From a virus: a stretch of DNA of 64,000 nucleotides. How positions within the stretch are numbered: position 1 is the stretch's first letter; every line of letters starts with the position of its first letter. The DNA is taken from the IMG/VR virus record IMGVR_UViG_3300042455_000638. The stretch is one strand, 5' to 3'. A program made the position numbers and the translations under genes. This document shows positions 649-29,296 of the stretch, piece by piece. Under the pieces are notes generated by a model that worked only from the letters and a program-made list of their open reading frames with translations, was not told the origin of the DNA and did no database searches.

Positions 649-745
649 GTATCACCTCCAAAATGGTTTGAGAGAACACGATCGGGGGCCACCGCAGTGG
701 CCCCCTGTCACAGTCTCACACCGTCACCAACTGTACTTAGAAGCT
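649..745 (-). repeat. Composite intergenic element, copy 1 (box GAGAACACGATCG + hairpin GGGGCCACCGCAGTGGCCCC + 35-bp box ...CAACTGTACTTA)
   Basis: Same tripartite arrangement as at 3601-3690, 5802-5890 and 6419-6510. Located between the stop of one leftward gene and the RBS of the next. Confidence 0.6.
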
Positions 746-3600: not shown

Positions 3601-3690
3601 GGTTTCTCCTTTCTGCCAGAGAACACGAGTGACAAGCCCCGCAGGACTCGTCGGTCACACTCTCTGTCACCGGGGTCAACTGTACTTAGC
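3601..3690 (-). repeat. Composite intergenic element, copy 2
   Basis: GAGAACACGAGTG + stem-loop (ACGAGT...ACTCGT) + GGTCACACTCTCTGTCACCGGGGTCAACTGTACTTA. Its TTA is the stop of the upstream gene. Confidence 0.6.
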
Positions 3691-4273
3691 CTTCCATATC
3701 CTCTACACGGTCACGAATGTCCTCAATACTGTCTTCGAACCATGCGTACGGTACGACTGCAAACCAGCAGGCATCGGTACACTGGTACGTCTCGAACGTG
3801 TTGAACGTCTCAGGCCGGTAGATGCTGCCGATGCAGAAGTCACTACGTGGGTTTTCCCGCTCGGCCAGGACCAGCTCACGGATGTCCTCAACCTCGCAGT
3901 CAAGTTCCTCGGCCAGCATCTTGACCTCAACTTGGTTTTCGACTTCTTCGATGCTGGAGGACCACACTTGGCAACCGGCTTTTGCCTCGTCAACATCGGA
4001 GTTCCGGCGACCACTGAAGCGGTGGCCAGGCTCCATGTCAAACGACCATGCGTCAAACTCATCTACGACCATTCTGGTCTCGTCTGGCGTCCAGTCCGGG
4101 AAGTTGGTCTGGATGTACTCTTCCAAGACGGCCTTGACCCGGTGTGAGTCCTCCACGACGCAGTGCGTGTAGGCATCGCCAGCGTCACCGTGCTTCTCCT
4201 CGTACTCAAGGTGTGACTCGTCACACCGTTTCAGCAACTCACGAAAGCGTTGCTGCAGTTCTGGGTCGGTCAT
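3686..4273 (-). CDS. Hypothetical acidic protein (about 195 aa)
   Basis: Track ORF 3686..4372 trimmed to ATG 4271-4273 with GGAG RBS. ATGA overlap with the upstream gene. Stop is embedded in the conserved box. Confidence 0.5.
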   Translation of the reverse strand: MTDPELQQRFRELLKRCDESHLEYEEKHGDAGDAYTHCVVEDSHRVKAVLEEYIQTNFPDWTPDETRMVVDEFDAWSFDMEPGHRFSGRRNSDVDEAKAGCQVWSSSIEEVENQVEVKMLAEELDCEVEDIRELVLAERENPRSDFCIGSIYRPETFNTFETYQCTDACWFAVVPYAWFEDSIEDIRDRVEDMEG

Positions 4274-4581: not shown

Positions 4582-4649
4582 GTTTCACCTCACTTTCACA
4601 GGTCTGAATGAACACAATACCGGGCCACCGCAATGGCCCGGCGTTACGA
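4582..4649 (-). repeat. Partial copy (box GAACACAATACC + hairpin GGGCCACCGCAATGGCCC)
   Basis: Hairpin at 4621-4638 with the upstream box. The 35-bp box is absent. Confidence 0.45.
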
Positions 4650-5312
4650 TCACTCAGGACTGCCGTTCTCGTCAAACTCGTACTCGTTGGCGATGATATT
4701 CTCGGCAACAACTTCATCGCTGGTCAACCAGTCATGGTCTTTCTCAAGTCTGTTGTACAACCAGTCGGCCAACCATCGCAGGTTGTTCTCCACGACCGTT
4801 TCACGATCACGGTCCTCCATCTGTTCCCATTCGCCCTCCGAATTCTCGAAGTCGTTGAACTCGAACCGCATGGTGTGAGAGTGTGAGTACCGGCCAGTGG
4901 TTGTGATGTCCACTCGACACGTTGCGTTGTACGGTTCGACAAAGTCCACGAACAGACACGCAGCGATGTTGTGCAGGTCCGTATCCAGAGGAGCATACTC
5001 TTTGATCTTCTCGACCATGTCGAGCTTGCCCCGGAAGCAACCCTCGAAGCTGGCTCCATCACCCTGTGACCAGAAACCACTGAACTGGATGTTGGGCTTT
5101 TGACGAGTACCGCCACCCATAAGTTTCACAGGGCTGGTACTCAGCTCAACCCCGAGGATCTTGCAGACCTCTACGAAGTCATCGTAGACACTGTCCCACC
5201 ACTCGTAGTCAAGCCCACCATCCATGCCGAGATACCACTCACGGGCTTTCTGTTTTGCACTGTCCGACAGTTCTTCGTACTTGAAGACCTCTGTCACTTT
5301 GTTACGCGGCAT
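4650..5312 (-). CDS. Hypothetical highly acidic protein (220 aa)
   Basis: Track ORF. GAGGAGG RBS. Acidic, W/F-rich composition. No family recognised with certainty. Confidence 0.5.
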   Translation of the reverse strand: MPRNKVTEVFKYEELSDSAKQKAREWYLGMDGGLDYEWWDSVYDDFVEVCKILGVELSTSPVKLMGGGTRQKPNIQFSGFWSQGDGASFEGCFRGKLDMVEKIKEYAPLDTDLHNIAACLFVDFVEPYNATCRVDITTTGRYSHSHTMRFEFNDFENSEGEWEQMEDRDRETVVENNLRWLADWLYNRLEKDHDWLTSDEVVAENIIANEYEFDENGSPE

Positions 5313-5801: not shown

Positions 5802-5890
5802 TGTGAACCTCCTTTCTGAGAGAACACGATCGACGAGCCTCGCAAGGCTCGTCTGTCACACACTCTCACCGGGGTCAACTGTACTTACTC
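5802..5890 (-). repeat. Composite intergenic element, copy 3
   Basis: GAGAACACGATCG + hairpin GACGAGCCTCGCAAGGCTCGTC + TGTCACACACTCTCACCGGGGTCAACTGTACTTA. Confidence 0.6.
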
Positions 5891-6418
5891 TTCTACGTCT
5901 TCAACCTTGTAGATTGGGTATGGTGCCTCACCGTCTTCAAACCAGTCTGGACCCAGACAATACGTCTTAGGCCCGGTTGGACAAGGATTGCCAAGATGAC
6001 CGGCTCCGGGAGCACACGGACTGCAGAACTGAGCGTGAGTGTAGAAGGGACTCTTCAACACCCACACATCACCATCCTGAGCCAGCTTGAGGAAGTACCC
6101 GTCGCCTTCAAACTCCCACGGGCCACCCTCCTGACAGTCGTGCCACTCCACGTTGCCGATGATCTCAGCAGCCAGCTCGTCAGGATCACCAACCTGACCG
6201 TACGGGTCAATGGCCGCTGCAATGGCTCGTGCCAGCTCGTCTTTGGCCTGGTCACGCATGTTCTCAAAGCCGACATCAGTACCTTGTGTAATGAGGTCAT
6301 CAAGTGCTTCGGGCATCACGTCGTGCTGACTGATGACCCCATAGCGTATTCCGGTCACATGATCTCGGTTCGTCTGGCCAAGACCGTAGTCAATGCCAGT
6401 GTAGCTGGTCTCTTCCAA
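5885..6418 (-). CDS. Hypothetical acidic Cys-rich protein
   Basis: Track ORF 5885..6481 begins at a GTG inside the upstream hairpin. The likely start is TTG 6416-6418, 6 nt after GGAGGAG. That gives the same hairpin-box-RBS-start order seen in the other intergenic units. Confidence 0.4.
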   Translation of the reverse strand: MEETSYTGIDYGLGQTNRDHVTGIRYGVISQHDVMPEALDDLITQGTDVGFENMRDQAKDELARAIAAAIDPYGQVGDPDELAAEIIGNVEWHDCQEGGPWEFEGDGYFLKLAQDGDVWVLKSPFYTHAQFCSPCAPGAGHLGNPCPTGPKTYCLGPDWFEDGEAPYPIYKVEDVEE

Positions 6419-6510
6419 TGTAATCTCCTCCAAAGGTTCGAAAGTACACGATTGGGAACCACCGCAATGGCTCCCTGTCACACACTCTCAACCGGGGTCA
6501 ACTGTGTTTT
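6419..6510 (-). repeat. Composite intergenic element, copy 4
   Basis: AAGTACACGATTG + hairpin GGAACCACCGCAATGGCTCC + TGTCACACACTCTCAACCGGGGTCAACTGTG. Confidence 0.6.
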
Positions 6511-8099: not shown

Positions 8100-8140
8100 C
8101 CGGACACAATCAATCACCGCTCCCAACTGTACTTACCCTT
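8100..8140 (-). repeat. Degenerate copy of the 35-bp box (..CACCGCTCCCAACTGTACTTACC)
   Basis: Box fragment at the head of the leftward gene array, not attached to a coding stop. Confidence 0.35.
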
Positions 8141-8222
8141 TCCGCTTTCTTAGTACTACGGTCAGGGGGAGAATTCATATCCTTACAATGTGTAATTTTC
8201 AATGGAAAGAACAGTTCAGAAT

Positions 8223-8325: not shown

Positions 8326-9054
8326 ATGATTGGAACCGCAGTAGATGATAGAACATTCACGGAACGCCCCGCCCCGATCCATCTGGGACACTACCGAACC
8401 AGGCCGACAAATGCTGCAATACTGGTAGCAATCGCTGCTGCTCGAAAAATGCCAGGTGGGATCGGCAAGGCGATTGCGAACGTCTCAGGGACTCGCCAGT
8501 TGACTTGCCGAGTGTTTCCGGACGTTGAACCGGATCGAGACGAACAGCCCCGCCTGGAGGACGTGGAAACCCCTGGACAGCATGACGGACCGGCCCCGAC
8601 TGTAGACTACAGCGGACGCCCAACAACAAGGCAGGCCGATAGACCGTATCTCATCTGGTGGGCAATGTTGCAACAACCAGCAAAAGATATGATTGCAGAA
8701 CTACAACCGCACGACAGAGACGACATCAGACAAGACCTTGCGATAAAATACTGGAGGCAGGCAGTAAAACAGGAAGCTGCGGGGAACCGCATCACAAACC
8801 CAGTCCCATTCGTCGCAAAGGCAGTTTCGGCCTGGATAGGCCGGAATACTGGGATTGCCGAAGTAAACCCGCTAACGCAGCAGCAGAGAGAAGACGCCGT
8901 CGACGCACTTGACGCACAGAGGAAAGCGGCGGAAGAATCCCGACTGCAAGCACTTGACGCAGAATTGGCAATCGTACAAGCACGATTCCACGCAGCAACA
9001 ATTGCTAAACTGGACGCAAAGAAACCGGAATCAGTATTCTGCTTCAAATGGTAA
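8326..9054 (+). CDS. Hypothetical protein; C-terminal about 130 aa coiled-coil and HTH-like (start uncertain, alternative ATG at 8662)
   Basis: Long track ORF 8041..9054. The N-terminal third lies in an AT-rich promoter-like region. The C-terminal half (AIKYWRQAVKQEAAGNRITNPVPFVAKAVSAWIGRNTG...) is convincingly protein-like. Confidence 0.35.
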   Translation: MIGTAVDDRTFTERPAPIHLGHYRTRPTNAAILVAIAAARKMPGGIGKAIANVSGTRQLTCRVFPDVEPDRDEQPRLEDVETPGQHDGPAPTVDYSGRPTTRQADRPYLIWWAMLQQPAKDMIAELQPHDRDDIRQDLAIKYWRQAVKQEAAGNRITNPVPFVAKAVSAWIGRNTGIAEVNPLTQQQREDAVDALDAQRKAAEESRLQALDAELAIVQARFHAATIAKLDAKKPESVFCFKW

Positions 9055-9144: not shown

Positions 9145-9678
9145 ATGACATTCGAACAACTACGGGATTCTCTGATCGCAGACGGACTTTCCCCCGATAT
9201 GGCTTCCCAAATTGCTGCAAAGCAATTGGGACGACTCCAGGCCGAACTGGCGGCCGTCCAGGAACAAGCCCGTAAACAGGCAGAAGAAGCAGCAGGGATT
9301 GCGGACTGGTGCGGACTCCGGGTGACAAAACTTGGCTCAAATGGTAGGCCGACATCCTACACGATTGCGGCGGAAAACGGTGTCGCAGCAGAACCGCCTA
9401 AACTTGGAACCGATGAAAACGGAGCGGGTACGTTCTTTCCGGGATACCTTTGGATCGCTCGAAACAAGGAGAAACTACAGAACATCCCGCAATCGGTATG
9501 CAATACCATCCACAACCTGCTCCAAAGCGAGCAGGGAATTGAAGTGTTGAAACATGCTACCTCGTTTGCGTCCAATGCAGGACTGGCGGCCTACGCCACC
9601 AAACGGAAAGAACTAATTGCAGCCGGAACCGTAGCGGACTGGAACCGCAGCGGAAAGAAAGCCAAAGCAAAAGCCTAG
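9145..9678 (+). CDS. Hypothetical protein (177 aa)
   Basis: Track ORF. AAAGG RBS. Preceded by a perfect 12-bp inverted repeat and followed by another. Confidence 0.5.
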   Translation: MTFEQLRDSLIADGLSPDMASQIAAKQLGRLQAELAAVQEQARKQAEEAAGIADWCGLRVTKLGSNGRPTSYTIAAENGVAAEPPKLGTDENGAGTFFPGYLWIARNKEKLQNIPQSVCNTIHNLLQSEQGIEVLKHATSFASNAGLAAYATKRKELIAAGTVADWNRSGKKAKAKA

Positions 9679-9700
9679 ACAGACCCCACGCCACGCCTCG

Positions 9701-9734
9701 CAGGGTATCACCGGTGAAAACTGGTGATACCCTG
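9701..9734 (+). terminator. Inverted repeat CAGGGTATCACC...GGTGATACCCTG after gene stop (terminator or operator)
   Basis: 12-bp perfect arms, 12 nt after the TAG of the 9145-9678 gene. Weak T-tract. Confidence 0.35.
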
Positions 9735-9812
9735 TTCGCATTGGTAGACAGGGATTGCAAGCATTACCAGGCGGACCAGGTAAGCAAACAAATGGACCTG
9801 GACAAACATCGG

Positions 9813-9855
9813 GTAGGCCGCATACGTCGGCTGTGCTGTGCTGTGCTTTTTCTCT
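9813..9855 (+). terminator. Weak hairpin + (GCTGT)3 + T5
   Basis: GGCCGCATACGTCGGC followed by GCTGTGCTGTGCTGTGCTTTTTCTC. Confidence 0.25.
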
Positions 9856-10058
9856 TATATTACACGCCATTTCCAGTATATTGGAGGTGGCTGGACGGTA
9901 ACCCGCTACGTCAGTCCCGTTAAAACCTAGGATTGCCAGTGTTTTCCGCTCTTTCCTGCCATCCGGGGCAATGCCAGGGAAGTTAAGCCCAAATTCAGAC
10001 CGGGGCATCCTGGTCCTTACAGGGTCCTCTAGGCTATTTGGTAACCCAGCCACCTTTT

Positions 10059-10316
10059 TCACGTTTTTCCAAATCCTTACAAGTGACCCTTGGTAAAAGT
10101 TTTGCGTACCGGTACCCCCAGCACAGCCGTATATCCGCTTCACGTTTTTCCAAATCCTTACAAGTGACCCTTGGTAGAAGTTTTGTCCAACCTACGTCTC
10201 ACCCGGTAAAAGTTTTGCGTACCGGTACCTCCAGACTGGCTGCCTGCCGCCACGTCCTGTGACTGCCTGTTGAAGGTGAGACCTTGTTGGGGTTTTGCAT
10301 ACCGGCTCCACACGTC
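10059..10316 (+). repeat. Iteron-like direct repeats, candidate origin or regulatory locus
   Basis: 46-bp unit TTCACGTTTTTCCAAATCCTTACAAGTGACCCTTGGTA(A/G)AAGTTTTG at 10067 and 10139 (period 72 bp). Sub-repeat AAGTTTTGCGTACCGGTACC at 10098, 10208 and a degenerate copy at 10296. Contains palindrome GTACCGGTAC. Confidence 0.55.
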
Positions 10317-10388
10317 TGGCCGGGCCTTGACAGGCCCGACCGAGCTGGCGATGATGGCAGCGGCTTATCCCCTCAACGGAGACCAGAT

Positions 10389-10712
10389 ATGACCCCGAGA
10401 GCAAAGACCCTCTACTACCTTGGCTTTACCTCCTACAAAGCCTACCTACGGTCTGCATTGTGGAAATGGATCAGGGAGAAGGTTTTCAAGCAGAAGGGCC
10501 GTACGTGTGCCCTGTGCAGCCGTAGAGCCACTCAGATCCACCATCGGTCTTATGACCGTCTAACGCTCAGAGGGATCATCCTGGACTATCTGGAGCCCAT
10601 GTGCAGCGGTTGCCACCGTATGATCGAGGTGACACCATCAGGCCGCAAGAGGAAGCGGGCGGCTGTGGAGCGGATGTTCGTCAGGCTTAAACGAAAAAAG
10701 CTGGCCCGTTGA
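10389..10712 (+). CDS. HNH endonuclease
   Basis: CALCSRRATQIHHRSY...CSGCHRM matches the HNH C-x2-C...HH...C-x2-C-H pattern. GGAG RBS. Stop lies inside a bidirectional terminator. Confidence 0.6.
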   Translation: MTPRAKTLYYLGFTSYKAYLRSALWKWIREKVFKQKGRTCALCSRRATQIHHRSYDRLTLRGIILDYLEPMCSGCHRMIEVTPSGRKRKRAAVERMFVRLKRKKLAR

Positions 10713-10726
10713 GGCCAGCTTTACTT
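10692..10726. terminator. Bidirectional intrinsic terminator
   Basis: A6 - AGCTGGCC - loop - GGCCAGCT - TTTACTT. Sits where a rightward gene and the leftward operon converge. Confidence 0.6.
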
Positions 10727-11000: not shown

Positions 11001-11804
11001 CTACTTCTGCACAACTGGCACCTCGAATTCTTCGGTCTTGAGAACGATGCAGTACTTCCAGTTCTTTCGTATCTGCTCGACGTCGTTGGGGTTGATAGTG
11101 GTAGATGAGAAAGTGGGGGGTAATGAATCGCCGTACGCAAACGTCGTAAGAGACAACTTCATTGTCTTCTTCTGCTTCGGTCGGCGGAAGACGATAGTGT
11201 AGTACTTGTTCGCCCGGTACCAACCAACAGTGCGTCCGGGTTCGAACCACACACAACCAGAGGACTTCCGCCAGCCGGTGTTACAGTCCGTGTAGTTATG
11301 CTCGGAGTTAATGTCCGGTACATCGGATGCGTCCATCAACTCGTGGTCAGGACCAGTTGGGAGGGTTGGTATTGGTTCGGCAACAGTCTTGTGTCTAAGA
11401 ACCCTCGCAAGAGCCTGCTCCTCGGTGAGCTTCACCCGCTTACGGACAGCAGCAATACTGGGCATTGCCGCACTGCTGGATTCTACGCTCCCATCATGTT
11501 TGATGAAGCTCAAGAGCTTTGGACTGTCCACACGCACGTAAGCGTACACGTCTGGTACCGTCGTCTCGAAGTACTGTGGGTACACCACCGGTACCCAGTC
11601 CCAACCGTCGCAGTCCACAAGACGCTCTTTGTTCCGCAGCATGTAGTCAACCGGCAACCCATACACGCAGCCATCCATGCTCTCGCAGATAATCCGGCCA
11701 CCAACTGCCATGCCGTGAACCAGGATGCGGTGCCGCTTGTCCGTGTGGTTCTTCTCTGTCCACCACTGACCCTTTTCAATCTTAACTGACTCGACGTTTG
11801 ACAT
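11001..11804 (-). CDS. Hypothetical protein (267 aa)
   Basis: Track ORF. GGGAGAGGG RBS. First gene after the bidirectional terminator (minus-sense end of operon). Confidence 0.5.
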   Translation of the reverse strand: MSNVESVKIEKGQWWTEKNHTDKRHRILVHGMAVGGRIICESMDGCVYGLPVDYMLRNKERLVDCDGWDWVPVVYPQYFETTVPDVYAYVRVDSPKLLSFIKHDGSVESSSAAMPSIAAVRKRVKLTEEQALARVLRHKTVAEPIPTLPTGPDHELMDASDVPDINSEHNYTDCNTGWRKSSGCVWFEPGRTVGWYRANKYYTIVFRRPKQKKTMKLSLTTFAYGDSLPPTFSSTTINPNDVEQIRKNWKYCIVLKTEEFEVPVVQK

Positions 11805-12303
11805 AACCCTCTCCCGTAAGAAAAAAGTGAATAGCTCGTGAAGGCCCGATGAGATGCTTCAGCATCCTGAGCCAAGTTTGAATTCTGGTGTGGATCACCG
11901 ACTGATGAACTCCACACCGTTTAGCGATGGAACCTTGTGTCTCTCCGTGGAAGTACCTGAAGAGAACCTCGTACGCAGACGGTAGCTCTTTCCGGATAAC
12001 GTCCCATAGCTCCTCCAGGTTCTCCTCACAAACCTCGGGCCTGTTACGAAACAGCCCGGCCGGTCTAACCGGCCTGTGCTTAGCCAACATCCTCTTTAGA
12101 GTGTAGCTGGCCGTCCAGTAGCATCCGTTGCTCAGCAGGACGTCCTTCTTCGGTGGGTACCGCAGGAGGTTAACCATCGTCTCCTGGACTACATCATCCA
12201 GACCAAGGGACCGGGCCTGTCTGGCCCGGCCGAGGTTGCAAGTGAAGTAGTACCGAACAGACTTCTCGATCTCTTCAGCACTGTACCGTTTGAAGAAACT
12301 CAT
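11782..12303 (-). CDS. Sigma-70 family (ECF-like) sigma factor
   Basis: Region-2-like LDDVVQETMVNLLRY. Region-4 HTH LPSAYEVLFRYFHGETQGSIAKRCGVHQSVIHTRIQTWLRMLKH. ATGA overlap with the upstream gene. Confidence 0.55.
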   Translation of the reverse strand: MSFFKRYSAEEIEKSVRYYFTCNLGRARQARSLGLDDVVQETMVNLLRYPPKKDVLLSNGCYWTASYTLKRMLAKHRPVRPAGLFRNRPEVCEENLEELWDVIRKELPSAYEVLFRYFHGETQGSIAKRCGVHQSVIHTRIQTWLRMLKHLIGPSRAIHFFLTGEGYVKRRVS

Positions 12304-17512: not shown

Positions 17513-17548
17513 ATCAACCTCCGAATAAAATGTGAATGTCACCGGGCG

Positions 17549-17577
17549 TATCATCGCCCCGGTAAGACTTTTGTCAA
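17549..17577 (-). promoter_or_regulatory. Candidate leftward sigma70-like promoter (TTGACA-17-ATGATA) for the MazG operon
   Basis: Minus-sense TTGACAaaagtcttaccggggcgATGATA, about 35 nt upstream of the MazG-like start. The -10 is embedded in hairpin CACCGGGCG...CGCCCCGGTG. Confidence 0.35.
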
Positions 17578-17644
17578 ACCATCGTTGGTAAGATTCTTTA
17601 CCATAGGAACTGGTGTACAAACGTCTGGTGCAGCTACTGCATCT

Positions 17645-17660
17645 TGGTGCCCGGGCACCA
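17645..17660. promoter_or_regulatory. Perfect 16-bp palindrome TGGTGCCCGGGCACCA
   Basis: Seen directly in the divergent control region. Confidence 0.4.
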
Positions 17661-17827
17661 GCTTTCCGGATGCAGTTGACGATTGTACACTGTAGACTGG
17701 TAAAGATTTTTACTGTCCGGTACTGGTCTAACCTGGTATTACCGTCTACGGTTTAACCGGGCTTTGGCCCGGTAAACGTGGATGGGAGTTATTTAGAACC
17801 TTTCTCTGACAAATTTTTAGTATGGAT

Positions 17828-17856
17828 TTGACAGGCCAGCCTGGTAGACCTACTAT
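17828..17856 (+). promoter_or_regulatory. Consensus sigma70-type promoter TTGACA-17 nt-TACTAT, driving primase and the rightward operon
   Basis: -35 at 17828-17833 and -10 at 17851-17856 with a 17-nt spacer. Confidence 0.55.
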
Positions 17857-17886
17857 GCCCGCATCGCGGGCTAGTGGTCTACCAGG
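17840..17886. promoter_or_regulatory. Nested inverted repeats over the promoter -10 (CCTGGTAGACC ... GCCCGCATCGCGGGC ... GGTCTACCAGG)
   Basis: 11-bp outer arms at 17840-17850 and 17876-17886. 6-bp inner palindrome at 17857-17871. Operator-like. Confidence 0.45.
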
Positions 17887-18037
17887 TCTCGCTGGTTAAA
17901 CCGGCTTAAAGTTTTACCAGTGATTAGGTTTCTAACGAAACCCTTCAGGCTAGCCTGGCCTAACCTCGGGTATAACGTATAAGGTCTAACTGGTTTAACC
18001 TGTCTACCCGGTATGCAAAAAACCAAGGGTCCCCGCG

Positions 18038-18198: not shown

Positions 18199-20466
18199 AT
18201 GAATGAATTGCAAGAGCACCGCCAGGCGGCGTTGCGAACGGCTGGGCACCTCTGTCGCCACGGCATCCGTGTATTCCCACTCAGGTATGGCTACAAAGAT
18301 AAGTACCTTCACGAAGGCGACTGGGACGCCTACGCGACGAACAACATCAACACGTTCGTAACGCTCGTACCATCTGGACAGTTCAACCTCGCCATCTCAT
18401 TCGGACCGGAGTCTAATCTCTGTGACGTTGAGCCGGACGATGCAAACGCTGTTAAGATCCTTGACGAGATGATCAAGGAGTCCGGCGTCAAGACGATCAT
18501 GTACGCCACGTCTCGACGTGGTACGCATCATCTCTTCAAGTACGAACCTCGGCTGGCCGTATTCAACAAGGCCAACCTGAAGGTCAGCAACATCGAGTGC
18601 CGTCTCGGTCTCTACAACGAGAAGAACAAGCGACGACAGTATTCGGTAACGCCACCGTCGTTGCACCCGGATACTGGAGAGTTTTACAACTGGATAGAGG
18701 GGCACGCACCCTGGGACGTTGACCCAGCACCGATGCCAGAGAACATCATCCAGTTCTTCCTTACCAACTACACGGACAAGGACTACTCAAAGGCCGATGT
18801 CGTGTCAACCGGTGAAGGGTTTATTCCCGGCGAAGGCTACCGTCACGACTGGTTGCTGAAGTTCTCCAAGGAGCTTTACACCAAGTGGATGCTACCCCGC
18901 AACCATGTCGAAGACTTGTGCCGGTACATGTCACAAGCCATCGGTTCATACGAGATGGAGGGCCGAGGCGAGCATGAGATTAAGAACCTCTTCAACAACC
19001 TCCAGCGGCCGGTAGATCCGCTGAAAGAGTTAACCGCCGAGATCAGCATGGAGGACGTCAACGACGTTCTGGAAACCATGAGGTCCATGCAGGCAGCAAC
19101 CAATGCTGGCCAGTCACCAGAGATCCCGTCACACATCTTCCCAGCCGTCATTGAGGAAGCCAGTCAGAACGCAAAGCTAGCGGGCTACCCGAGGAATCTA
19201 TTTCTACATGCGGTCCTGTGCGTCACGTCGCACGCACTGGGGCAGGCCGTACGAGTCAGAGTTAGTCCAGACCACAGTACAATGGGTCTGCAGATGTTTT
19301 CATTCGGAGTGGGAGGTTCCGGGACGGGGAAGAGTAAGACCTTATCGGCCTTGCTAGGACCGGTCTCCCACTCCGAAAGTGTTACAACAGAGGGGAGCCC
19401 CGAAGGGCTTGTCTCCCTCATGAGTCGGTTCCAGCGGGGGATCATGCTGGAGTTCACCGAGGGTAAAGAGTTCTTCAAGATGCTCGGCAAGTATGGACCC
19501 AACGCTGGGCAGGGATCAGACAACAGTCTGTTCCACAAATGTTGGTCCGGTGACAAGATCAAGAGGACTCTGCAGAAGGGCACCTTCGGGGTACAGAGCC
19601 CGTTCCTCACAGTCTGTGCAGCCATCCAGAAGATTAACCTGAACCAGATGCCGATCAACGATTGTATGGACGGGCTCCTACCGAGAATGTTCGTCTATCC
19701 AATCGGTGACGTGCCAGCCAAAGAAGATCCCGCAGCCATAGCCAAGGTTCAGGAGTTCTTACAGCAGTGGTACGAGATCGTAGGGAGACTGGAGTCGGTG
19801 AAGCCGTCCATCGGCCTGCCATCAATCTCAGGTCTCCTCGCCGGTGCGGGCGTGGCTGTCAAGCCACTCACGATGACACTGGACCCTCAAGCCCGAGAAT
19901 TGTGGCGAGAGTATGCTGCCCATAAGAAGTCTCCGCAGACGCTCAGCCAGTGGCCAGAGGATCATCCGTACCGAGCAGACGTGGTTAGACATGCTGAGAT
20001 CGCGTTACGTACGTCAGCGGACCTTGTGATACTGGACTGCGGGTGTGATAAGCGGTTCTGGGAGTTGAACCAGGTTGGCAACCAGGATCACGGTAACATC
20101 AACAAGGATTGGATGCAGAAGTCCATCGACTTCATGGAGCACAACTGGTACCAGAAGCAGAAGCTGGTCGACGGCATCGTTGAGTCAGCTTTCGCGGTAG
20201 CCAGCGGTAACTACATGCTGGGTCGAGAAGAATCGGTACCAGCTCGGTTCGCCGTACAAGCGGCCGACCGGCGTCGACGTGTCGAGAAGTCATTCGGGGA
20301 GGTGTGGACCCTGAGAGAGTACTACAGTGTTCTCAAGTTGAAGAAAGATGAAGCCAGGAAGGAACTGGACATGTTTCTTCGAGAGGGCACTGTCGTAGAA
20401 TTGCCAATGCAGGACGGACAGAAAGCCGCCCGATTCAAATTTTTAGGAGAGATAGATGACAAGTGA
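18199..20466 (+). CDS. Bifunctional primase-polymerase (PrimPol N-terminal domain) fused to a P-loop NTPase (helicase-like) domain
   Basis: N-terminus (IRVFPL...CDVEPDD...TSRRGTHHLF) resembles the PrimPol D-x-D and T-x-G-G-x-H motifs. Walker A GGSGTGKSKT in the C-terminal half. First gene downstream of the TTGACA-17-TACTAT promoter. Confidence 0.55.
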   Translation: MNELQEHRQAALRTAGHLCRHGIRVFPLRYGYKDKYLHEGDWDAYATNNINTFVTLVPSGQFNLAISFGPESNLCDVEPDDANAVKILDEMIKESGVKTIMYATSRRGTHHLFKYEPRLAVFNKANLKVSNIECRLGLYNEKNKRRQYSVTPPSLHPDTGEFYNWIEGHAPWDVDPAPMPENIIQFFLTNYTDKDYSKADVVSTGEGFIPGEGYRHDWLLKFSKELYTKWMLPRNHVEDLCRYMSQAIGSYEMEGRGEHEIKNLFNNLQRPVDPLKELTAEISMEDVNDVLETMRSMQAATNAGQSPEIPSHIFPAVIEEASQNAKLAGYPRNLFLHAVLCVTSHALGQAVRVRVSPDHSTMGLQMFSFGVGGSGTGKSKTLSALLGPVSHSESVTTEGSPEGLVSLMSRFQRGIMLEFTEGKEFFKMLGKYGPNAGQGSDNSLFHKCWSGDKIKRTLQKGTFGVQSPFLTVCAAIQKINLNQMPINDCMDGLLPRMFVYPIGDVPAKEDPAAIAKVQEFLQQWYEIVGRLESVKPSIGLPSISGLLAGAGVAVKPLTMTLDPQARELWREYAAHKKSPQTLSQWPEDHPYRADVVRHAEIALRTSADLVILDCGCDKRFWELNQVGNQDHGNINKDWMQKSIDFMEHNWYQKQKLVDGIVESAFAVASGNYMLGREESVPARFAVQAADRRRRVEKSFGEVWTLREYYSVLKLKKDEARKELDMFLREGTVVELPMQDGQKAARFKFLGEIDDK

Positions 20467-21095: not shown

Positions 21096-21664
21096 ACGTG
21101 CTTGTTGCGTGTGAGTACAGCGGACGGGTGCGAGATGCCTTCCGCAAACTTGGCCATGATGCTTGGTCCTGCGATATCATCGACTCGGAGACACCGAGCG
21201 AGTACCACATCAAGGCCGATGTTCTCAGCGTTCTCAACTGCGGCTGGGATCTGATCATCGCTCACCCACCTTGTACGTACCTCTGCAACAGCGGAGTCCG
21301 TTGGTTGTACACAGAAGAGGGGCGTCTCAAGAAGATGACCGCTGCTGCCGGTTTCTTCAAAAGATTTCTCGAAGTTGACTGCCCGAGAGTCTGTATTGAG
21401 AATCCGATCATGCACAAGCACGCCAAGGTTATCATCGGTGTAGACTACACCCAGATCGTTCAACCGTGGCAGTATGGCCACGGGGAGACAAAGGCTACTT
21501 GCCTCTGGTTAAAGGGTTTGCCAAAGCTGGAACCGACAAACATCGTTGAAGGGCGTGAGGCCCGGATACATATGATGTCACCGGGGAAGGACCGGGGTAA
21601 GAAGCGGTCTGAGACGTATCAAGGTATTGCCGACGCGATGGCGGCACAGTGGGGCAGTTTATGA
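21092..21664 (+). CDS. Minimal DNA C5-cytosine methyltransferase-like protein
   Basis: IAHPPCTYLCNSG resembles C5-MTase motif IV (PC). VCIENP resembles motif VI (ENV). No convincing FxGxG motif I, so function is uncertain. Confidence 0.35.
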   Translation: MNVLVACEYSGRVRDAFRKLGHDAWSCDIIDSETPSEYHIKADVLSVLNCGWDLIIAHPPCTYLCNSGVRWLYTEEGRLKKMTAAAGFFKRFLEVDCPRVCIENPIMHKHAKVIIGVDYTQIVQPWQYGHGETKATCLWLKGLPKLEPTNIVEGREARIHMMSPGKDRGKKRSETYQGIADAMAAQWGSL

Positions 21665-23199
21665 GCACATGGGTCTACGCACGAGTATCAACCCTCGACC
21701 AGTACGTCAACGGGTACTCCATCGACCAACAGGTTCGGGTGTGCCTTGAGTACGCCAAGAACAACGACTACCTGCTTGGTCTTGAGACCAACTGCGACCT
21801 GCCCGGTGTCTTCATTGACGGCGGTAAGTCAGCCTTCAAGAAGAAGCTATGCCAACGGCCGGGTGGGCTCATGCTGCTCGGCAACGCTAAGCCCGGCGAC
21901 GTCATCATCGCGTTGGCCACCCACCGTCTGTTCCGCCAGTTCAACGACATGGTTGCTGTGATGGACCAGTGGGTACAGAACGGCGTGACGGTGAAGTTCG
22001 TCGACTACCCGACGCTCAACACCGACACAGCCAATGGCAAGGCGATGCTTTACATGATGGCGGTCATGGCTCAGCTAAGATCCGAGTTGATCTCAGCCCG
22101 AGTCAAAGAGTCACGAGTCATCGCAAGGACGAAGGCCCCCGAGAGGCCAAAGCCCAAACCCGTCGAGACCATCTGCTCATCAAAAGATGTCGGTGCTATC
22201 CTACAGCAGATGCAGCGTGACCGTGAAGCGGACAAGTACAAGTTCACGGGAAGGGTCCACGCATACGTCCGTGTATCCACGAACGACCAGACTGTTGAGC
22301 ATCAAGTCAACCTGCTCACAAAGATGTTGCCCGACGATCTGCGTGGAGCTGAGATTGTCTGGTACAAGGACGAAGGGGTGTCAGCCTTCAAGACCAAGTT
22401 CGAGAAGAGAAAGGCTGGGGGCGAGATGCTCAAGGCACTGAAGCCCGGCGACATGGTTGTGGCGTGGCGACCAGACCGTCTCTTCAGGTCAATGGTCGAC
22501 GCTAACCGAGTGGTCGATTCGATCCACAAGACCGGGGCGTCCCTGATGACCGTTGAGGGCGATCTGCGGACAGACAAACCACAGGGCAAGATGCTCATGC
22601 AGATGCTGGCCATGTTTGCCGAGATCGAGTCACAGGACATCTCACGCCTGACAAGACTCGGTAACTTCGGGGCCATTGGTATCAACCCGAAGATGCAGGC
22701 GATGCGTGTACCGAAGCTCCTGCGTGAGATGAAGAAACACTTCAACCAGAAGCACTACCACTTCGAGAACATTTTCACAGCCGACGAACGGTTCTACATG
22801 CACATCGAGCTTCACCTGACCGCGAAGAACTATCGTAGTCGGAAGGAGGCTTGCCGGGTCATCAGTAACAAGTGGCTGGCGAAGAAAGGTCTACCACCGG
22901 TACAGGGTGAGTACGGCGAACCTTGTAAGAACTACGCAAGAAGAATCCACAACATGCAGAAGGTGGAGTTCACCGAACGACGTCATCGGTTGTGTGAGCG
23001 GTTGAAGAAGCACCCGGACGAAGTGAGGTATCCGTTGAGTACAGAGACGGCTTGTCAGCTCGTGAGGAACCAGACAGAGTTCCTTCGTGTTGCGAAGATG
23101 TTTCCGGGGCGGCTGAAGGATAAGCAGTCACTGACGATGCTGGCGTCATCGTGTACGTCACCAGAGGCTGCAGTAGATTTCATGGGGAGACTGGGATGA
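21661..23199 (+). CDS. Serine recombinase with two tandem resolvase-type catalytic domains
   Basis: Two complete catalytic cores, at about aa 5-150 and 205-340. Each has YARVST.DQ / YVRVSTNDQ (Ser nucleophile), D.G.SAFK, R.DRLFR (R-x2-R) and a ...AE.ES..IS.R helix E. A unique C-terminal domain of about 170 aa follows. Confidence 0.65.
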   Translation: MSTWVYARVSTLDQYVNGYSIDQQVRVCLEYAKNNDYLLGLETNCDLPGVFIDGGKSAFKKKLCQRPGGLMLLGNAKPGDVIIALATHRLFRQFNDMVAVMDQWVQNGVTVKFVDYPTLNTDTANGKAMLYMMAVMAQLRSELISARVKESRVIARTKAPERPKPKPVETICSSKDVGAILQQMQRDREADKYKFTGRVHAYVRVSTNDQTVEHQVNLLTKMLPDDLRGAEIVWYKDEGVSAFKTKFEKRKAGGEMLKALKPGDMVVAWRPDRLFRSMVDANRVVDSIHKTGASLMTVEGDLRTDKPQGKMLMQMLAMFAEIESQDISRLTRLGNFGAIGINPKMQAMRVPKLLREMKKHFNQKHYHFENIFTADERFYMHIELHLTAKNYRSRKEACRVISNKWLAKKGLPPVQGEYGEPCKNYARRIHNMQKVEFTERRHRLCERLKKHPDEVRYPLSTETACQLVRNQTEFLRVAKMFPGRLKDKQSLTMLASSCTSPEAAVDFMGRLG

Positions 23200-26927: not shown

Positions 26928-27530
26928 ATGATATGCAAAGGCATGTGCGGTATGCCGGTCAAGCAACTCTCCCCCAGAGGTTTCTGTATGTCCTGCGAAG
27001 ATGAGGTAAAGACGGCAAGCACCATTGCTGTGCTGGCCACGAGTACCCCGGCCAAACCCGGGCGAGGATTCAGGGAGGCATTAGCTGAGGTACGCCGCTC
27101 AGGCAGGCCACTCACGCTCGACATGGCTGAGGCCGCAGAAGAAGCTCTCGGCGGTGCGGGCAACCTCGCCAAAATGATCGTAGATGACCTCAAGCGGGTG
27201 AAGGGCGAACACCTTGACCCGGAGCTGCAGGTCTTCCACGAGACCGACTGGAAGGTAGCCAAAGGTTTGACCGAGATGCTGGTCAACATCTTTCAGGCAC
27301 GAGATAAGCTGGCCGGTGATACAGGGGACCCGCTGGCCGACGTCAGCGAAGCAGACCTCATGGCTATCGCAAGCCAAGCTGCGTTGCTTCAGATCGAGAC
27401 CGACGCTGAGTTCAGGATAAAGATCCTCGACGCGATTATCGAAGCAGACCCAGACGCTGTTGTGGCTGCGGCTGGTCGAGCCCTCGATAAGATTGAAGCC
27501 GGTCCGAGAGTGGAGGTCATCGACGTATGA
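26928..27530 (+). CDS. Putative terminase small subunit with N-terminal zinc ribbon
   Basis: Immediately upstream of and ATGA-coupled to the large terminase. About 200 aa with C-x3-C...C-x2-C at the N-terminus. Start at ATG 26928 is chosen because a terminator hairpin (26879-26917) occupies the longer N-terminal extension. No SD. Confidence 0.4.
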   Translation: MICKGMCGMPVKQLSPRGFCMSCEDEVKTASTIAVLATSTPAKPGRGFREALAEVRRSGRPLTLDMAEAAEEALGGAGNLAKMIVDDLKRVKGEHLDPELQVFHETDWKVAKGLTEMLVNIFQARDKLAGDTGDPLADVSEADLMAIASQAALLQIETDAEFRIKILDAIIEADPDAVVAAAGRALDKIEAGPRVEVIDV

Positions 27531-29296
27531 GCGACCTCATCTCACGAATCAAAGCATCATTGAAAGACAGGCAGGACCTTCAACAAGGCGTTGCTGCAGC
27601 CGCCAAGCTGGTACGTCAGAAGGTCAACGCCCTTGAGATGTTCCGGCCAACGAAGTACCAGGAGGAAGTTGTTCTTAGCGGGGCATCTGAGATCCTGGTC
27701 CAGGGGGCACCACGATCTGGTAAGTCTACTATCGTGGCGGCAATGGCAGCATCGTACCTCACCGGTATGCCTATCACGTTCTCAGACGGGTCTAAGCACT
27801 ACGTGCGGGAGCCCGGCTGGATGGACCGACCGGTCAACATGTGGCTCATCGGTCTGCAGTTGAACCACATCGGACAGACGATCTACCGACTGCTTTGCAA
27901 ACCGGGAGCGTTTGACATCGTCCGAGATAAGACAACAGGTATGTGGAGGTGTTGGCAGCCGGGCGTTGTACCGGGGGACGATGTCATTCCTGTCAACGAA
28001 AGGAAACCATCGCCACCTTTCATCCCGCCGTCCATGATCGAGAAAGAGTCATGGGCCAACAAGGCCGCATTCCAGTTCGAGTCTTTGACGATGAAGGACG
28101 GATCGACCGTCTATGCGTTTGCGTCCTCCGGTGCCGTGAAGCGTGGCGACCCGGTCAACATGATATGGATCGACGAAGAAATCGAGAACAGCGGTCACTA
28201 CGCGGAGTGGCAGTCACGACTGTCTGACCGTAAGGGTCGTATCTTCTGGACGTCATGGCCGGACGCTTCAACAGCGGCACTGCTTGACCTGTATCGACGA
28301 TGCGAGAATCAACGTGAAGAGTTCAACGCCGGTATCCGAAAGAAGCTCGACGTAACTAACTTCAAGTTCACGTCGTTCAAGAACCCGTTCATCGACGAGG
28401 ACGAAAAGCGTAAGCGTATCGAGGGTTGGTCTGAAGATCAGATCACCGCCCGAGCGATGGGTGACTTCGTAGTCGGTAATATCCTTGCGTACCCGGAGTT
28501 CAACAAGCGTATCCACACAGTCGACTATGGCGACGGGCACCCACTGAACGACAAGGTCACGGAGGCTATGCGGCGGCTTAACTGGAACGCTCCAGCCGAC
28601 TGGTGCGTCGACATAATCCTCGACCCGGGTACCGCTCGGCCAGCACTGTTGTGGGTGGCGATACCTCCTGAGTCTTTCTGGGACGACGGGGAGCCGTACC
28701 ACATAGTATTCAGGGAGATGGCGGTCCCACGCATACACGCTGGGGAAATGGCTAGAAGGGCCAAAGCAGCCGACCCTTTCCGATGGTACGCCAGATTTAT
28801 CGGGGACGCCAAGGCGGGCGACCAGACGCCGATGGGGCACGCCCACACGGTATTCCAGAATTACGAGATGGAGTTCCGGAAGGCGGGCTTGCGTTGTCAA
28901 CTGACGGGTGATATGTTTCTCAGGGGAGAGACTGTCTGGGTCAACCGTTCATTGAAGTTGCGTACACTCATGCAGGTACGAACGTCATGCGGCCGACCCC
29001 GGTTTCGGGTTGTAACCCACATGTGCCCCGTGCTTGTCAAACAGTTAGAGACAACGGTGAAAGCCGTTACGAAGGAGGATGTGCAGGACAAGTTAGCTCA
29101 GGGTCAGATTCACGACGTACTCGATACGGCTGAATACTACGCCGGGTTCAACCCGAAGTTCCTCGCACCGCCCCCGAACCAGATCCCAAAGGACCCCGGT
29201 CTCCTCATGTGGGAGGCAGACCAGAAGTTTGTTCAGGACCGTTTCCGCCGAGATAAAGACGACCGCAAGGACAAGATTGTTCTCGGTGCCCCATAG
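27527..29296 (+). CDS. terL: Terminase large subunit
   Basis: Walker A VQGAPRSGKST and Walker B MIWIDEEI. 589 aa, followed by the portal-sized gene. Confidence 0.85.
   Translation: MSDLISRIKASLKDRQDLQQGVAAAAKLVRQKVNALEMFRPTKYQEEVVLSGASEILVQGAPRSGKSTIVAAMAASYLTGMPITFSDGSKHYVREPGWMDRPVNMWLIGLQLNHIGQTIYRLLCKPGAFDIVRDKTTGMWRCWQPGVVPGDDVIPVNERKPSPPFIPPSMIEKESWANKAAFQFESLTMKDGSTVYAFASSGAVKRGDPVNMIWIDEEIENSGHYAEWQSRLSDRKGRIFWTSWPDASTAALLDLYRRCENQREEFNAGIRKKLDVTNFKFTSFKNPFIDEDEKRKRIEGWSEDQITARAMGDFVVGNILAYPEFNKRIHTVDYGDGHPLNDKVTEAMRRLNWNAPADWCVDIILDPGTARPALLWVAIPPESFWDDGEPYHIVFREMAVPRIHAGEMARRAKAADPFRWYARFIGDAKAGDQTPMGHAHTVFQNYEMEFRKAGLRCQLTGDMFLRGETVWVNRSLKLRTLMQVRTSCGRPRFRVVTHMCPVLVKQLETTVKAVTKEDVQDKLAQGQIHDVLDTAEYYAGFNPKFLAPPPNQIPKDPGLLMWEADQKFVQDRFRRDKDDRKDKIVLGAP

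What the first reader, a model, noticed from the sequence alone, without database searches (positions are those of the whole stretch)
9680..10390. 700-bp non-coding island with iteron-like direct repeats and palindromes next to an HNH endonuclease
There is no credible ORF here. The island contains:
- a perfect 12-bp inverted repeat at 9701-9734;
- a (GCTGT)3-T5 tract;
- two 46-bp direct repeats (10067 and 10139, period 72 bp);
- copies of AAGTTTTGCGTACCGGTACC carrying the palindrome GTACCGGTAC (10098, 10208, degenerate 10296).

This is the classic look of an iteron-type replication origin or a partition/packaging site. It lies between two short rightward genes and a free-standing HNH endonuclease that ends in a bidirectional terminator.
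Basis: seen in the sequence. Interest (0 to 1): 0.6.

Follow-up and report, generated by a model that had tools for sequence, protein, structure and literature searches.

The report
Phage non-coding control region before HNH gene
This 0.7-kb gene-free stretch of an uncultivated freshwater phage is real and conserved, and it looks most like a transcription-control region for the neighbouring HNH nuclease gene (a terminator, a swappable promoter cassette, and tandem protein-binding modules locked to a promoter) rather than a classic replication origin or packaging site.

Summary
The repeats and palindromes exist, with some coordinate errors: the 47-nt repeat starts at 10058 and 10139, so the period is 81, not 72. 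The island is truly non-coding. pN/pS is 0.83-1.16 in all six frames, against 0.17-0.19 for the flanking genes. It is nevertheless conserved in about 10 related metagenomic phage lineages.

Anatomy:
- An intrinsic terminator (9701-9734) with six compensatory pairs.
- A variable spacer.
- A promoter/operator cassette that occurs in three non-homologous forms among near-identical phages. Its -10-like box always lies 8 nt before a conserved block starting at 9891.
- One to three tandem 64-81-nt modules.
- A 12-nt motif, TYTGCRTACCGG, present in 2-4 same-orientation copies. The last copy always lies 21-22 nt upstream of the -35 box of a conserved sigma70-type promoter (TTGACA-17-GATGAT, 10327-10355) that drives the HNH gene.

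That promoter type occurs only once more in the window, at 17577->17550. That site lies in the control region beside the primase-helicase gene, which also shares the island's short motifs.

Best reading: a DNA-level regulatory array, confidence about 0.45. Rivals are a P4 crr-like or SPP1 oriR-like second replication site, a non-coding leader RNA, and an HNH nick or packaging site. A classic iteron origin, cos site, sigma54 promoters, structured RNA and a protein-coding gene each failed at least one test. Moderate-to-low interest.

The parts
9701..9742 (+). Intrinsic terminator of the rightward 242-aa/177-aa operon. Stem 9701-9715 / 9720-9734, loop GAAA, weak T-tail here (TTCGCATT; TTTTCRTT in relatives).
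   Evidence: inverted repeat. (terminator scan hits in L010, L002, L016); 15 pairs, 98.3% of cells paired, 6 pairs with changes on both sides, 0/500 shuffles reach the score. The G.U pairs fit the + strand RNA.
9743..9829 (.). Poorly conserved spacer, with indels and local tandem duplications in relatives.
   Evidence: Alignment A1; island sequences.
9830..9851 (.). (GCTGT)3.6 tract plus T5; specific to this lineage.
   Evidence: Absent from L004 and the other relatives.
9850..9890 (+). Exchangeable promoter/operator cassette, 'type 1'. A degenerate left palindrome (9850-9864) and the palindrome TTCCAGTATATTGGA (9871-9885). The -10-like TATATT (9877-9882) lies exactly 8 nt before the conserved block.
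   Evidence: a -10-like hexamer 8 nt upstream of the block start in 8/8 lineages; three non-homologous cassette types. The type swaps between otherwise near-identical phages (window vs L004; L014 vs L008). TTCACG-17-TATATT is called as a promoter in L002.
9891..10049 (+). Conserved non-coding block D. Invariant patches are CCAGGGAAGTT (9974-9984) and the inverted repeat GACCGGG/CCTGGTC (9998-10015), followed by GGTCCT, TTTGG and CACC at constant spacing.
   Evidence: Alignments A2 and A6. pN/pS is about 1 in all frames. Divergence is about 0.19 per site, against neighbour pS of 0.35-0.71. No consensus RNA fold.
10050..10121 (+). Tandem module 1. T-rich element TTCACGTTTTTCCAAATC (10058-10075), TTGGTAAAAGTTTTG motif (10090-10104), core motif TTTGCGTACCGG (10101-10112).
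10131..10234 (+). Tandem module 2. T-rich element (10139-10156), motif TTGGTAGAAGTTTTG (10171-10185), extra segment TCCAACCTACGTCTCACC, motif CCGGTAAAAGTTTTG (10203-10217), core motif (10214-10225).
   Evidence: The extra segment is also present in the distant relative L036, so its absence from L004 is a deletion.
10235..10326 (+). Promoter-proximal segment, with a degenerate module and the proximal core motif TTTGCATACCGG (10294-10305). That motif lies 21 nt upstream of the -35 box.
   Evidence: the motif starts 33-34 nt before the -35 hexamer in 9/9 lineages, although the intervening 21-22 nt differ.
10318..10355 (+). Sigma70-type promoter of the HNH gene: -35 TTGACA 10327-10332, 17-nt spacer, -10 GATGAT 10350-10355. 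The -35 box sits in the loop of the inverted repeat 10318-10327 / 10332-10341.
   Evidence: conserved in all lineages; this hexamer pair occurs only twice in the window, against 0.05 expected.
10389..10712 (+). HNH endonuclease gene (107 aa, two CxxC pairs). Always downstream of the array.
   Evidence: phrog_144, E 2.6e-7. (pN/pS 0.17). (weak match to T4 endonuclease VII). (conserved neighbours).
10697..10722 (.). Bidirectional terminator-like hairpin closing the HNH gene and the convergent leftward operon.
17550..17604 (-). Related site outside the island. A leftward promoter TTGACA-16-GATGAT (17577->17550) carries the motif CCGGTAAGACTTTTG (17559-17573) in its spacer. The palindrome GGTAAGATTCTTTACCAT (17587-17604) lies just upstream.
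   Evidence: the 18-nt pattern derived from the L036/L037 islands hits only here. Region 17531-18030 is nearly invariant in relatives.
18008..18021 (-). Single copy of the core motif (TTTTTGCATACCGG) in the primase-helicase control region.
   Evidence: (inverted repeat I1, 29 nt, 79%). Conserved in L029 and L030.

Best explanation
The island is a non-coding transcription-control region that works at the DNA level.

Reading left to right:
(i) An RNA hairpin terminator ends the upstream two-gene operon.
(ii) A short promoter/operator cassette follows, carrying palindromic sites. It has been exchanged between otherwise near-identical phages and fires rightward from a -10 box 8 nt before a conserved block.
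(iii) The conserved block and 1-3 tandem 64-81-nt modules carry short motifs of constant spacing. These motifs are bound by one or more phage (or host) DNA-binding proteins.
(iv) The last copy of the core motif TYTGCRTACCGG is held 21-22 bp upstream of the -35 box of a sigma70-type promoter (TTGACA-17-GATGAT). It is therefore centred near -63, the position typical of class I activators. From there the bound protein controls transcription of the HNH endonuclease gene.

The same promoter type and the same motif family occur in the divergent control region between the leftward nucleotide-metabolism operon and the primase-helicase gene. The HNH gene is therefore wired into the same circuit.

Shown: the terminator, the absence of coding, nucleotide-level constraint, promoter conservation, the fixed spacing, and the motif sharing.

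Inferred: that proteins bind these motifs, which protein does so, and whether the effect is activation or repression.
For: - Non-coding: pN/pS 0.83-1.16 in six frames, against 0.17 and 0.19 for the neighbouring genes. A compensating +1/-1 indel in L037 shifts the only conserved open frame while the nucleotide motif is kept.
- Constraint: block divergence is about 0.19, against synonymous divergence of 0.35-0.71 next door.
- Terminator: 6 compensatory pairs, 0/500 shuffles.
- Promoter of HNH: TTGACW-17-GATGAT in all 9 lineages.
- Proximal core motif: starts 33-34 nt before the -35 box in 9/9 lineages, with the intervening sequence diverged but never changed in length by more than 1 nt. All core motifs are in one orientation.
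- The hexamer pair TTGACA...GATGAT occurs only at P_HNH and at 17577->17550 (expected 0.05). The spacer of that second promoter holds the island motif YYGGTAARANTTTTR. That motif has 5 hits in the window, all in these two regions, against 0.18 expected.
- An 18-nt palindrome pattern taken from the islands of L036/L037 hits the window only at 17587-17604.
- A -10-like hexamer lies 8 nt before the conserved block in 8/8 lineages, with three non-homologous cassette types.
- No consensus RNA fold or covariation in block D, which favours DNA-level recognition.
Against: - No binding protein was identified. The flanking 242-aa and 177-aa proteins have no family, solved-structure or confident-model match. 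No nearby gene family tracks the cassette type.
- About 450 bp of conserved upstream DNA is a lot for one small gene.
- The T-rich element of the module is 100% invariant in seven lineages, more than a typical operator.
- Core-motif spacings (37-133 nt) are not helically phased.
- The region could equally be read as RNA, because a promoter-like box sits at its 5' edge and no terminator lies before the HNH gene.
- All promoter calls are consensus matches without expression data.
Confidence: 0.45

Rival explanations
1. A second cis-acting replication element, comparable to P4 crr or SPP1 oriR. The tandem modules would carry binding sites for the phage replication initiator (perhaps the 755-aa primase-helicase). 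That protein would also bind the main control/origin region just upstream of its own gene 7.5 kb away, and the two sites would cooperate in initiation.
For: - Motif families are shared exclusively between the island and 17.5-18.1 kb.
- These two 500-nt bins have the highest GGTA/TACC density of 128 bins.
- The 17.5-18.0 kb region is nearly invariant and abuts the primase-helicase gene.
- The cumulative GC-skew minimum lies near 18-19 kb.
- The direct-repeat modules vary in copy number and evolve in concert.
- An AT-rich palindromic cassette lies next to the array.
- The descriptions of P4 (two 120-bp direct repeats with initiator sites, 4.5 kb from ori) and SPP1 (oriL/oriR sharing boxes) are from my own knowledge. 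They were not checked in a paper here.
Against: - At 17559-17573 the shared motif lies in the spacer of a promoter, as an operator would.
- The island array is locked to the HNH promoter.
- There is no DnaA box, no skew inflection at 10 kb, and no initiator gene adjacent.
- The AT-rich cassette is not conserved but swapped between lineages.
Confidence: 0.2
2. A non-coding RNA, or a roughly 500-nt regulatory leader of the HNH mRNA. It would be transcribed rightward from the cassette promoter, starting near 9890. The conserved patches and tandem modules would act as RNA-level protein-binding or processing sites.
For: - A -10-like box at a fixed 8 nt before the conserved block in 8/8 lineages.
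- The block begins where the transcript would start.
- No + strand terminator between 9891 and the HNH gene.
- The GACCGGG/CCTGGTC hairpin changes only through G.U-compatible substitutions on the + strand.
- Block length is strictly conserved (236 nt in 6 of 7 lineages).
Against: - No consensus structure: -13.8 kcal/mol over about 190 nt, covariation term about 0, and only 1 pair with a change on both sides.
- The module hairpin is broken rather than compensated in several copies and is absent from L036/L037.
- No Rfam match even at E <= 10.
- The fixed spacing of the last motif relative to the -35 box is a DNA-geometry constraint.
Confidence: 0.15
3. A cluster of target sites for the adjacent HNH enzyme, which would act as a site-specific nickase. 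The resulting nicks or a staggered break would serve packaging (pac/cos-like) or recombination-primed replication.
For: - Small phage HNH proteins are site-specific nickases. Several have ...G|GT / AC|C... cores and usually sit next to the cohesive-end site (PMC3592412).
- The island's conserved motifs are rich in CCGGT and YGGTA.
- The HNH gene is always immediately downstream of the array.
- Many short contigs break inside the array.
Against: - The terminase and portal genes are 17 kb away.
- Long related contigs carry the island internally and end at different places.
- Contig breaks at repeats are expected from assembly alone.
- This HNH shows no detectable sequence similarity to the solved phage nickases; only a weak endo VII match was found.
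- A 38%-identical HNH homologue has no such array.
Confidence: 0.1
4. A plasmid-type partition (centromere) site for an extrachromosomal prophage.
For: Tandem direct repeats with an embedded palindrome resemble sopC- or parS-type arrays (own knowledge).
Against: - The palindrome is not conserved in relatives.
- No ParA- or ParB-like hit among the flanking proteins.
- The phage carries a serine integrase, so an integrated prophage is expected.
Confidence: 0.03

Closest known systems
Multi-operator phage control regions, such as lambda OL/OR or the p4/p6 nucleoprotein complex at the phi29 promoters (own knowledge)
   Same: Several copies of a short motif in non-coding DNA, placed at and upstream of sigma70-type promoters. 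The same motif is used at two separated control regions. Specificity cassettes are swapped between close relatives.
   Different: No repressor or activator gene is linked or identified. The motifs sit in 64-81-nt tandem modules with variable copy number. The array reaches about 270 bp (up to about 340 bp in L016) upstream of the promoter. The two regions are 7.5 kb apart.
Class I activator sites, such as CRP at -61.5 (own knowledge)
   Same: A conserved site at a fixed distance, centred about 63 nt upstream of the inferred start, in front of a promoter with a weak -10 box.
   Different: The site is not a dyad, the protein is unknown, and further copies lie upstream at unphased distances.
P4 ori + crr and SPP1 oriL + oriR (own knowledge)
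   Same: Two separated non-coding regions share initiator-type motifs. One lies beside a primase-helicase gene. The other is made of long direct repeats.
   Different: No evidence of replication function. The motif overlaps promoter elements. No AT-rich unwinding element is conserved.
Iteron origins of plasmids and lambdoid phages
   Same: Direct repeats in gene-free DNA, with an AT-rich patch nearby.
   Different: The repeat units are 3-4 times longer. They are not phased at about 22 bp. There are no DnaA boxes and no adjacent Rep gene.
HNH-associated cos regions of HK97-like, phi12 or phiSLT phages (PMC3592412; PMC5052747)
   Same: A small zinc-binding HNH gene directly next to a conserved non-coding element.
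   Different: The terminase genes are not adjacent, and contig ends give no sign of fixed termini.
Type III toxin-antitoxin loci (ToxIN; own knowledge)
   Same: Tandem direct repeats immediately upstream of a small nuclease gene, with variable copy number.
   Different: The repeats are 64-81 nt, not about 36 nt. The nuclease is an HNH protein, not ToxN-like. It has its own promoter, and no terminator separates the repeats from the gene.

Membership tests
Iteron-type replication origin | Three or more direct repeats of about 17-22 bp at helically phased spacing | tested here: not met
   Modules are 64-81 nt. The 12-nt core motif recurs at 37, 80-92, 114, 126 and 132-133 nt across lineages.
Iteron-type replication origin | Conserved AT-rich unwinding element and DnaA boxes beside the repeats | tested here: not met
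   The AT-rich cassette is replaced by non-homologous sequence in close relatives. No TTATCCACA-like box with up to 1 mismatch lies in the island.
Iteron-type replication origin | Cognate initiator gene adjacent, or binding demonstrated | tested here: inconclusive
   The flanking 242-aa and 177-aa proteins have no detectable family or fold. Motifs are shared with the primase-helicase control region. Binding cannot be tested here.
cos/pac packaging site | Located beside or inside the terminase genes | tested here: not met
   TerL is at 27527-29296 and the portal at 29625-31811. The island is at 9.7-10.4 kb.
cos/pac packaging site | Genome termini map to the site | not testable with these tools
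   No reads are available. Indirectly, long contigs hold the island internally and end elsewhere.
Partition (centromere) site | Adjacent ParA/ParB-type genes and conserved dyad repeats | tested here: not met
   No such hits in the neighbours. The GTACCGGTAC dyad is not conserved.
Intrinsic (rho-independent) terminator | GC-rich hairpin kept by compensatory changes, followed by a T-run, at the end of a gene | tested here: met
   (6 compensatory pairs, 98.3% of cells paired). (T-runs in relatives). The window's own T-run is weak (TTCGCATT).
Sigma70-type promoter (for HNH) | -35 and -10 hexamers with a 16-18-nt spacer, conserved upstream of the gene | tested here: met
   TTGACW-17-GATGAT in all lineages, 33-35 nt before the start codon of HNH, or before an inserted small ORF in L036/L042. 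There is no expression data.
Sigma54-type promoter (inside each module) | GG-N10-GC spacing conserved in all copies | tested here: not met
   12 of 15 copies fit. Two have N11. The L036/L037 modules lack the GG element entirely while keeping the TGCATACCGG part.
Structured non-coding RNA | Consensus secondary structure supported by covariation | tested here: not met
   RNAalifold gives -13.8 kcal/mol with a covariation term of about 0. An earlier 7-sequence run gave a covariation term of +1.29. No Rfam family matched.
Protein-coding gene | Purifying selection on one reading frame | tested here: not met
   pN/pS is 0.83-1.16 in six frames, against 0.17-0.19 in the controls. The 41-codon open frame 9971-10096 has ATG/GTG/CTG starts and is frame-shifted locally in L037.
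Type III toxin-antitoxin | About 36-nt tandem RNA repeats, then a terminator, then a ToxN-family endoribonuclease | tested here: not met
   The repeat length, the absence of a terminator and the HNH family all disagree.

The most novel reading that the evidence does not exclude
The tandem modules and the control region beside the primase-helicase gene form a two-site system recognised by one phage protein. That system would couple replication initiation (crr/oriR-like) or HNH-made site-specific nicks at the CCGGT/YGGTA motifs to expression of the HNH gene. The exchangeable cassette would set lineage-specific control.
Probability: 0.15. Interest if true: 0.6.

Novelty: new member of a known kind. 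Interest (0 to 1): 0.3.

Why it matters
The phage lineage has no cultured relative: there is no DNA or protein match in 50,697 phage records. Any defined control element therefore helps in reading its genome.

The island gives concrete, testable handles:
- a conserved promoter class (TTGACA-N16/17-GATGAT);
- a 12-nt motif at a fixed upstream position;
- a naturally swapped promoter/operator cassette.

If the array turned out to be a second replication site or a nickase target cluster, it would link a free-standing HNH gene to a defined DNA site away from the terminase, which is unusual. As it stands, this is an ordinary kind of element, a phage regulatory region, in an unusual modular form.

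Tried and rejected
- Protein-coding, including a 41-codon ORF open in all relatives and a 176-aa minus-strand ORF. Rejected by pN/pS, by stop codons in relatives, and by a frame-shifting indel pair.
- Sigma54 promoters in each module. Rejected by the distant relatives.
- Structured RNA. No covariation and no Rfam hit.
- tRNA or tmRNA. None found.
- Module hairpin as a terminator. It is strong only in L010, and the U-run is not conserved.
- Known phage relatives. No blastn or tblastn match in the phage collection.
- Host identification by scanning genomes for the 22-mer. Only chance hits.
- Function of the flanking proteins by AlphaFold. pLDDT was 57 and 55, too low for fold searches, which were therefore not run. 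PDB profile searches were empty.
- Search for a regulator gene that co-varies with the cassette type. None found within the available flanks.
- Literature check of P4 crr. Nothing usable was found in the held library, so the P4 and SPP1 comparisons rest on my own knowledge.
- GGTWWWACC motif. It is enriched at 17.7-18.0 kb but not in the island.
Full report
**Setting**

The window is a tailed-phage genome with no cultured relative. There is no DNA match and no portal or TerL protein match in 50,697 phage records.

Recognisable genes:
- primase-helicase, 18199-20466;
- serine recombinase, 21649-23199;
- portal, 29625-31811;
- TerL, 27527-29296;
- DUF2800 nuclease;
- family-A DNA polymerase, 60455-62596;
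- a leftward operon with MazG-like, exonuclease and NT5C genes;
- a sigma-like 173-aa protein, 11782-12303.

The finding lies in a short rightward unit embedded among leftward genes. The unit comprises a 242-aa gene (8326-9054), a 177-aa gene (9145-9678), the island, and an HNH gene (10389-10712; phrog_144 E 2.6e-7).

**Observation**

All the listed repeats exist, with corrections.
- The long repeat is 47 nt, at 10058 and 10139. The period is 81, not 72.
- The first inverted repeat has 15-nt arms.
- The GTACCGGTAC palindrome and the (GCTGT)n tract are peculiar to this phage.
- The motifs are far above chance.

**Relatives**

The 177-aa, HNH and 242-aa proteins each have only 8-15 homologues among 5.8 billion proteins. 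Most are close; the most distant HNH hit is 38% identical.

Their contigs come from freshwater and other metagenomes. They gave about 10 distinct lineages that carry the same gene order and an island of 670-1060 nt.

A 38%-identical HNH homologue has no such island.

**Not coding**

- In the conserved block, pN/pS is 0.83-1.16 in all six frames. The HNH and 177-aa genes give 0.17 and 0.19 in their true frame and more than 1.4 in the wrong frames.
- A 41-codon frame (9971-10096) is open in all lineages. It starts with ATG, GTG or CTG and shows no synonymous excess.
- In L037 that frame carries a +1/-1 indel pair that keeps the nucleotide motif GGTCCT while changing five codons.
- The 176-aa minus-strand frame has stop codons in three relatives.
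- The block nevertheless diverges at about 0.19 per site, against 0.35-0.71 at the neighbours' synonymous sites. It is therefore constrained as nucleic acid.

**Anatomy (window coordinates)**

A. 9701-9734, hairpin.
- 15 pairs, 98.3% of cells paired, six pairs with compensatory change, 0/500 shuffles as good.
- G.U pairs fit the + strand.
- Followed by TTTTC in relatives.
- This is the terminator of the upstream operon, not an origin palindrome.

B. 9743-9829, variable spacer.

C. 9850-9890, short AT-rich cassette. It exists in three non-homologous forms.
- Type 1: two 15-bp palindromes TTCCNNTATANNGGA about 20 bp apart. Found in the window, L014, L016, L036 and L042.
- Type 2: two or three GATTCRCGAA sites plus an inverted copy, forming TTCRCG-17-TATATT. 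Found in L004, L002/L032, L008 and L010. Called as a promoter.
- Type 3: two inverted GTAAGAAAGTTTAC sites. Found in L037.
- The type differs between phages that are otherwise 97-100% identical here (window vs L004; L014 vs L008).
- In 8/8 lineages of types 1 and 2, a -10-like hexamer lies exactly 8 nt before the conserved block begins at 9891.

D. 9891-10049, conserved block. Invariant patches sit at constant spacing, including the inverted repeat GACCGGG/CCTGGTC.

E. One to three tandem modules of 64-81 nt. Each module has:
- a T-rich element, TTCACGTTTTTCCAAATC, 100% invariant in seven lineages;
- a variable middle part;
- a core motif, TYTGCRTACCGG.
Modules within a genome resemble each other more than their counterparts elsewhere. 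Copy number varies. Distant relatives lack the middle part.

F/G. 10235-10355, promoter-proximal segment and promoter.
- The last core motif starts 33-34 nt before the -35 hexamer of TTGACW-17-GATGAT in 9/9 lineages.
- The 21-22 intervening bases have diverged.
- The HNH start codon follows 33-35 nt after the -10 box. In L036 and L042 a small inserted ORF follows instead.

**Link to a second region**

- TTGACA-N14-19-GATGAT occurs only twice in 64 kb, against 0.05 expected: at the HNH promoter and, leftward, at 17577->17550.
- That second promoter starts the nucleotide-metabolism operon.
- Its spacer contains CCGGTAAGACTTTTG, a member of the island motif YYGGTAARANTTTTR. This motif has five hits in the window, all in these two regions, against 0.18 expected.
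- The palindrome GGTRAGRWTCTTTACCAT occurs in several copies in the L036/L037 islands. It hits the window only at 17587-17604.
- One copy of the core motif lies at 18008-18021.
- Region 17531-18030 is almost invariant among relatives. It also holds a strong rightward promoter, TTGACA-17-TACTAT, for the primase-helicase.

**Interpretation**

Three observations point to DNA-level transcription control of the HNH gene. It would share a circuit with the 17.5-18.1 kb control region.
- The core motif is locked in position relative to a conserved promoter.
- The related motif takes an operator-like position inside the second promoter.
- The cassette with palindromes is exchangeable.
I give this 0.45.

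The binding protein is not identified.
- The flanking proteins have no family hit.
- They have no PDB relative, and only low-confidence models could be made.
- No nearby gene tracks the cassette type.

**Rivals**

*crr/oriR-like second replication site, 0.2.* It is kept alive by the motif sharing with the primase-helicase region and by the long direct repeats. It is weakened by the promoter-linked geometry, the lack of DnaA boxes, the lack of a conserved unwinding element, and the absence of a skew signal at 10 kb.

*Leader or non-coding RNA, 0.15.* It fits the promoter box at the block's 5' edge and the lack of a terminator before the HNH gene. However, no consensus fold or covariation was found in nine lineages, and no Rfam hit.

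*Nick-site or packaging reading, 0.1.* It draws on published small phage HNH nickases with ...G|GT cores that sit next to cos sites (PMC3592412). Here, though, the terminase is 17 kb away, and long contigs carry the island internally.

*Partition site, about 0.03.* Unlikely.

*Rejected by a direct test.* Sigma54 promoters (GG-N10-GC), a type III toxin-antitoxin, and a classic iteron origin.

**Verdict**

This is a real, conserved, modular non-coding control region. Most probably it is a regulatory array for the HNH promoter. It is a new member of a known kind, of moderate-to-low interest, with a minority chance of a replication-linked or nickase-linked role that would be more interesting.

Noticed in passing
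window 665-739, 2737-2768, 3618-3706, 4601-4656, 5813-5905, 6435-6509, 8105-8153: A family of intergenic repeats between the leftward genes. Each has conserved flanks (TGAGAGAACACGAT ... TGTCACAC ... TCAACTGTACTTA) around a GC-rich hairpin whose stem sequence differs from copy to copy. They may be terminator/promoter or RNA-processing modules of the leftward operon. They also cross-match in relatives.
   Followed up: no
window 17531-18030: A 500-nt non-coding region, 95-100% identical in relatives whose primase-helicase is only 91% identical. It contains divergent promoters, a long nested hairpin (17840-17886), four GGTWWWACC sites (6 in the window against 1.0 expected) and many YGGTA motifs. 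It is the better candidate for the phage's main origin or switch region.
   Followed up: partly
window 11027-11780: The 267-aa gene (11001-11804, minus strand, no family hit) is an insertion relative to L004. The flanks of L004 are 96.7-99.5% identical to the window. Gene content between HNH and the sigma-like gene differs in every lineage.
   Followed up: no
L036 3774-4004 and L042 1302-1514: In two lineages a small Cys-rich ORF (70-76 aa, no PHROG hit) is inserted between the HNH promoter and the HNH gene. This recalls the zinc-ribbon proteins found next to phage HNH nickases (PMC3592412).
   Followed up: partly
window 8326-8511: The N-terminal 45-60 residues of the 242-aa protein are non-homologous or absent among close relatives (198-252 aa forms). 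The C-terminal 180 residues are conserved and end in a long predicted helix.
   Followed up: no
L016 1499-1598: A scaffold gap (run of N) with the same 50 nt duplicated on both sides. This is an assembly artefact inside the island. Many short contigs of relatives also break at the tandem modules.
   Followed up: yes
window 21649-23199: The serine recombinase is 516 aa. Its catalytic-domain match starts only at residue about 191, so it carries an unexplained N-terminal extension of about 190 aa.
   Followed up: no
L021-L024, L027 (human-gut contigs), L019/L028 (Sulfurovum MAG): The 22-mer CTTTTTCACGTTTTTCCAAWTC matches exactly in several unrelated gut and Sulfurovum contigs, with no further similarity to the island. 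This was presumed to be chance or an unrelated conserved gene.
   Followed up: partly
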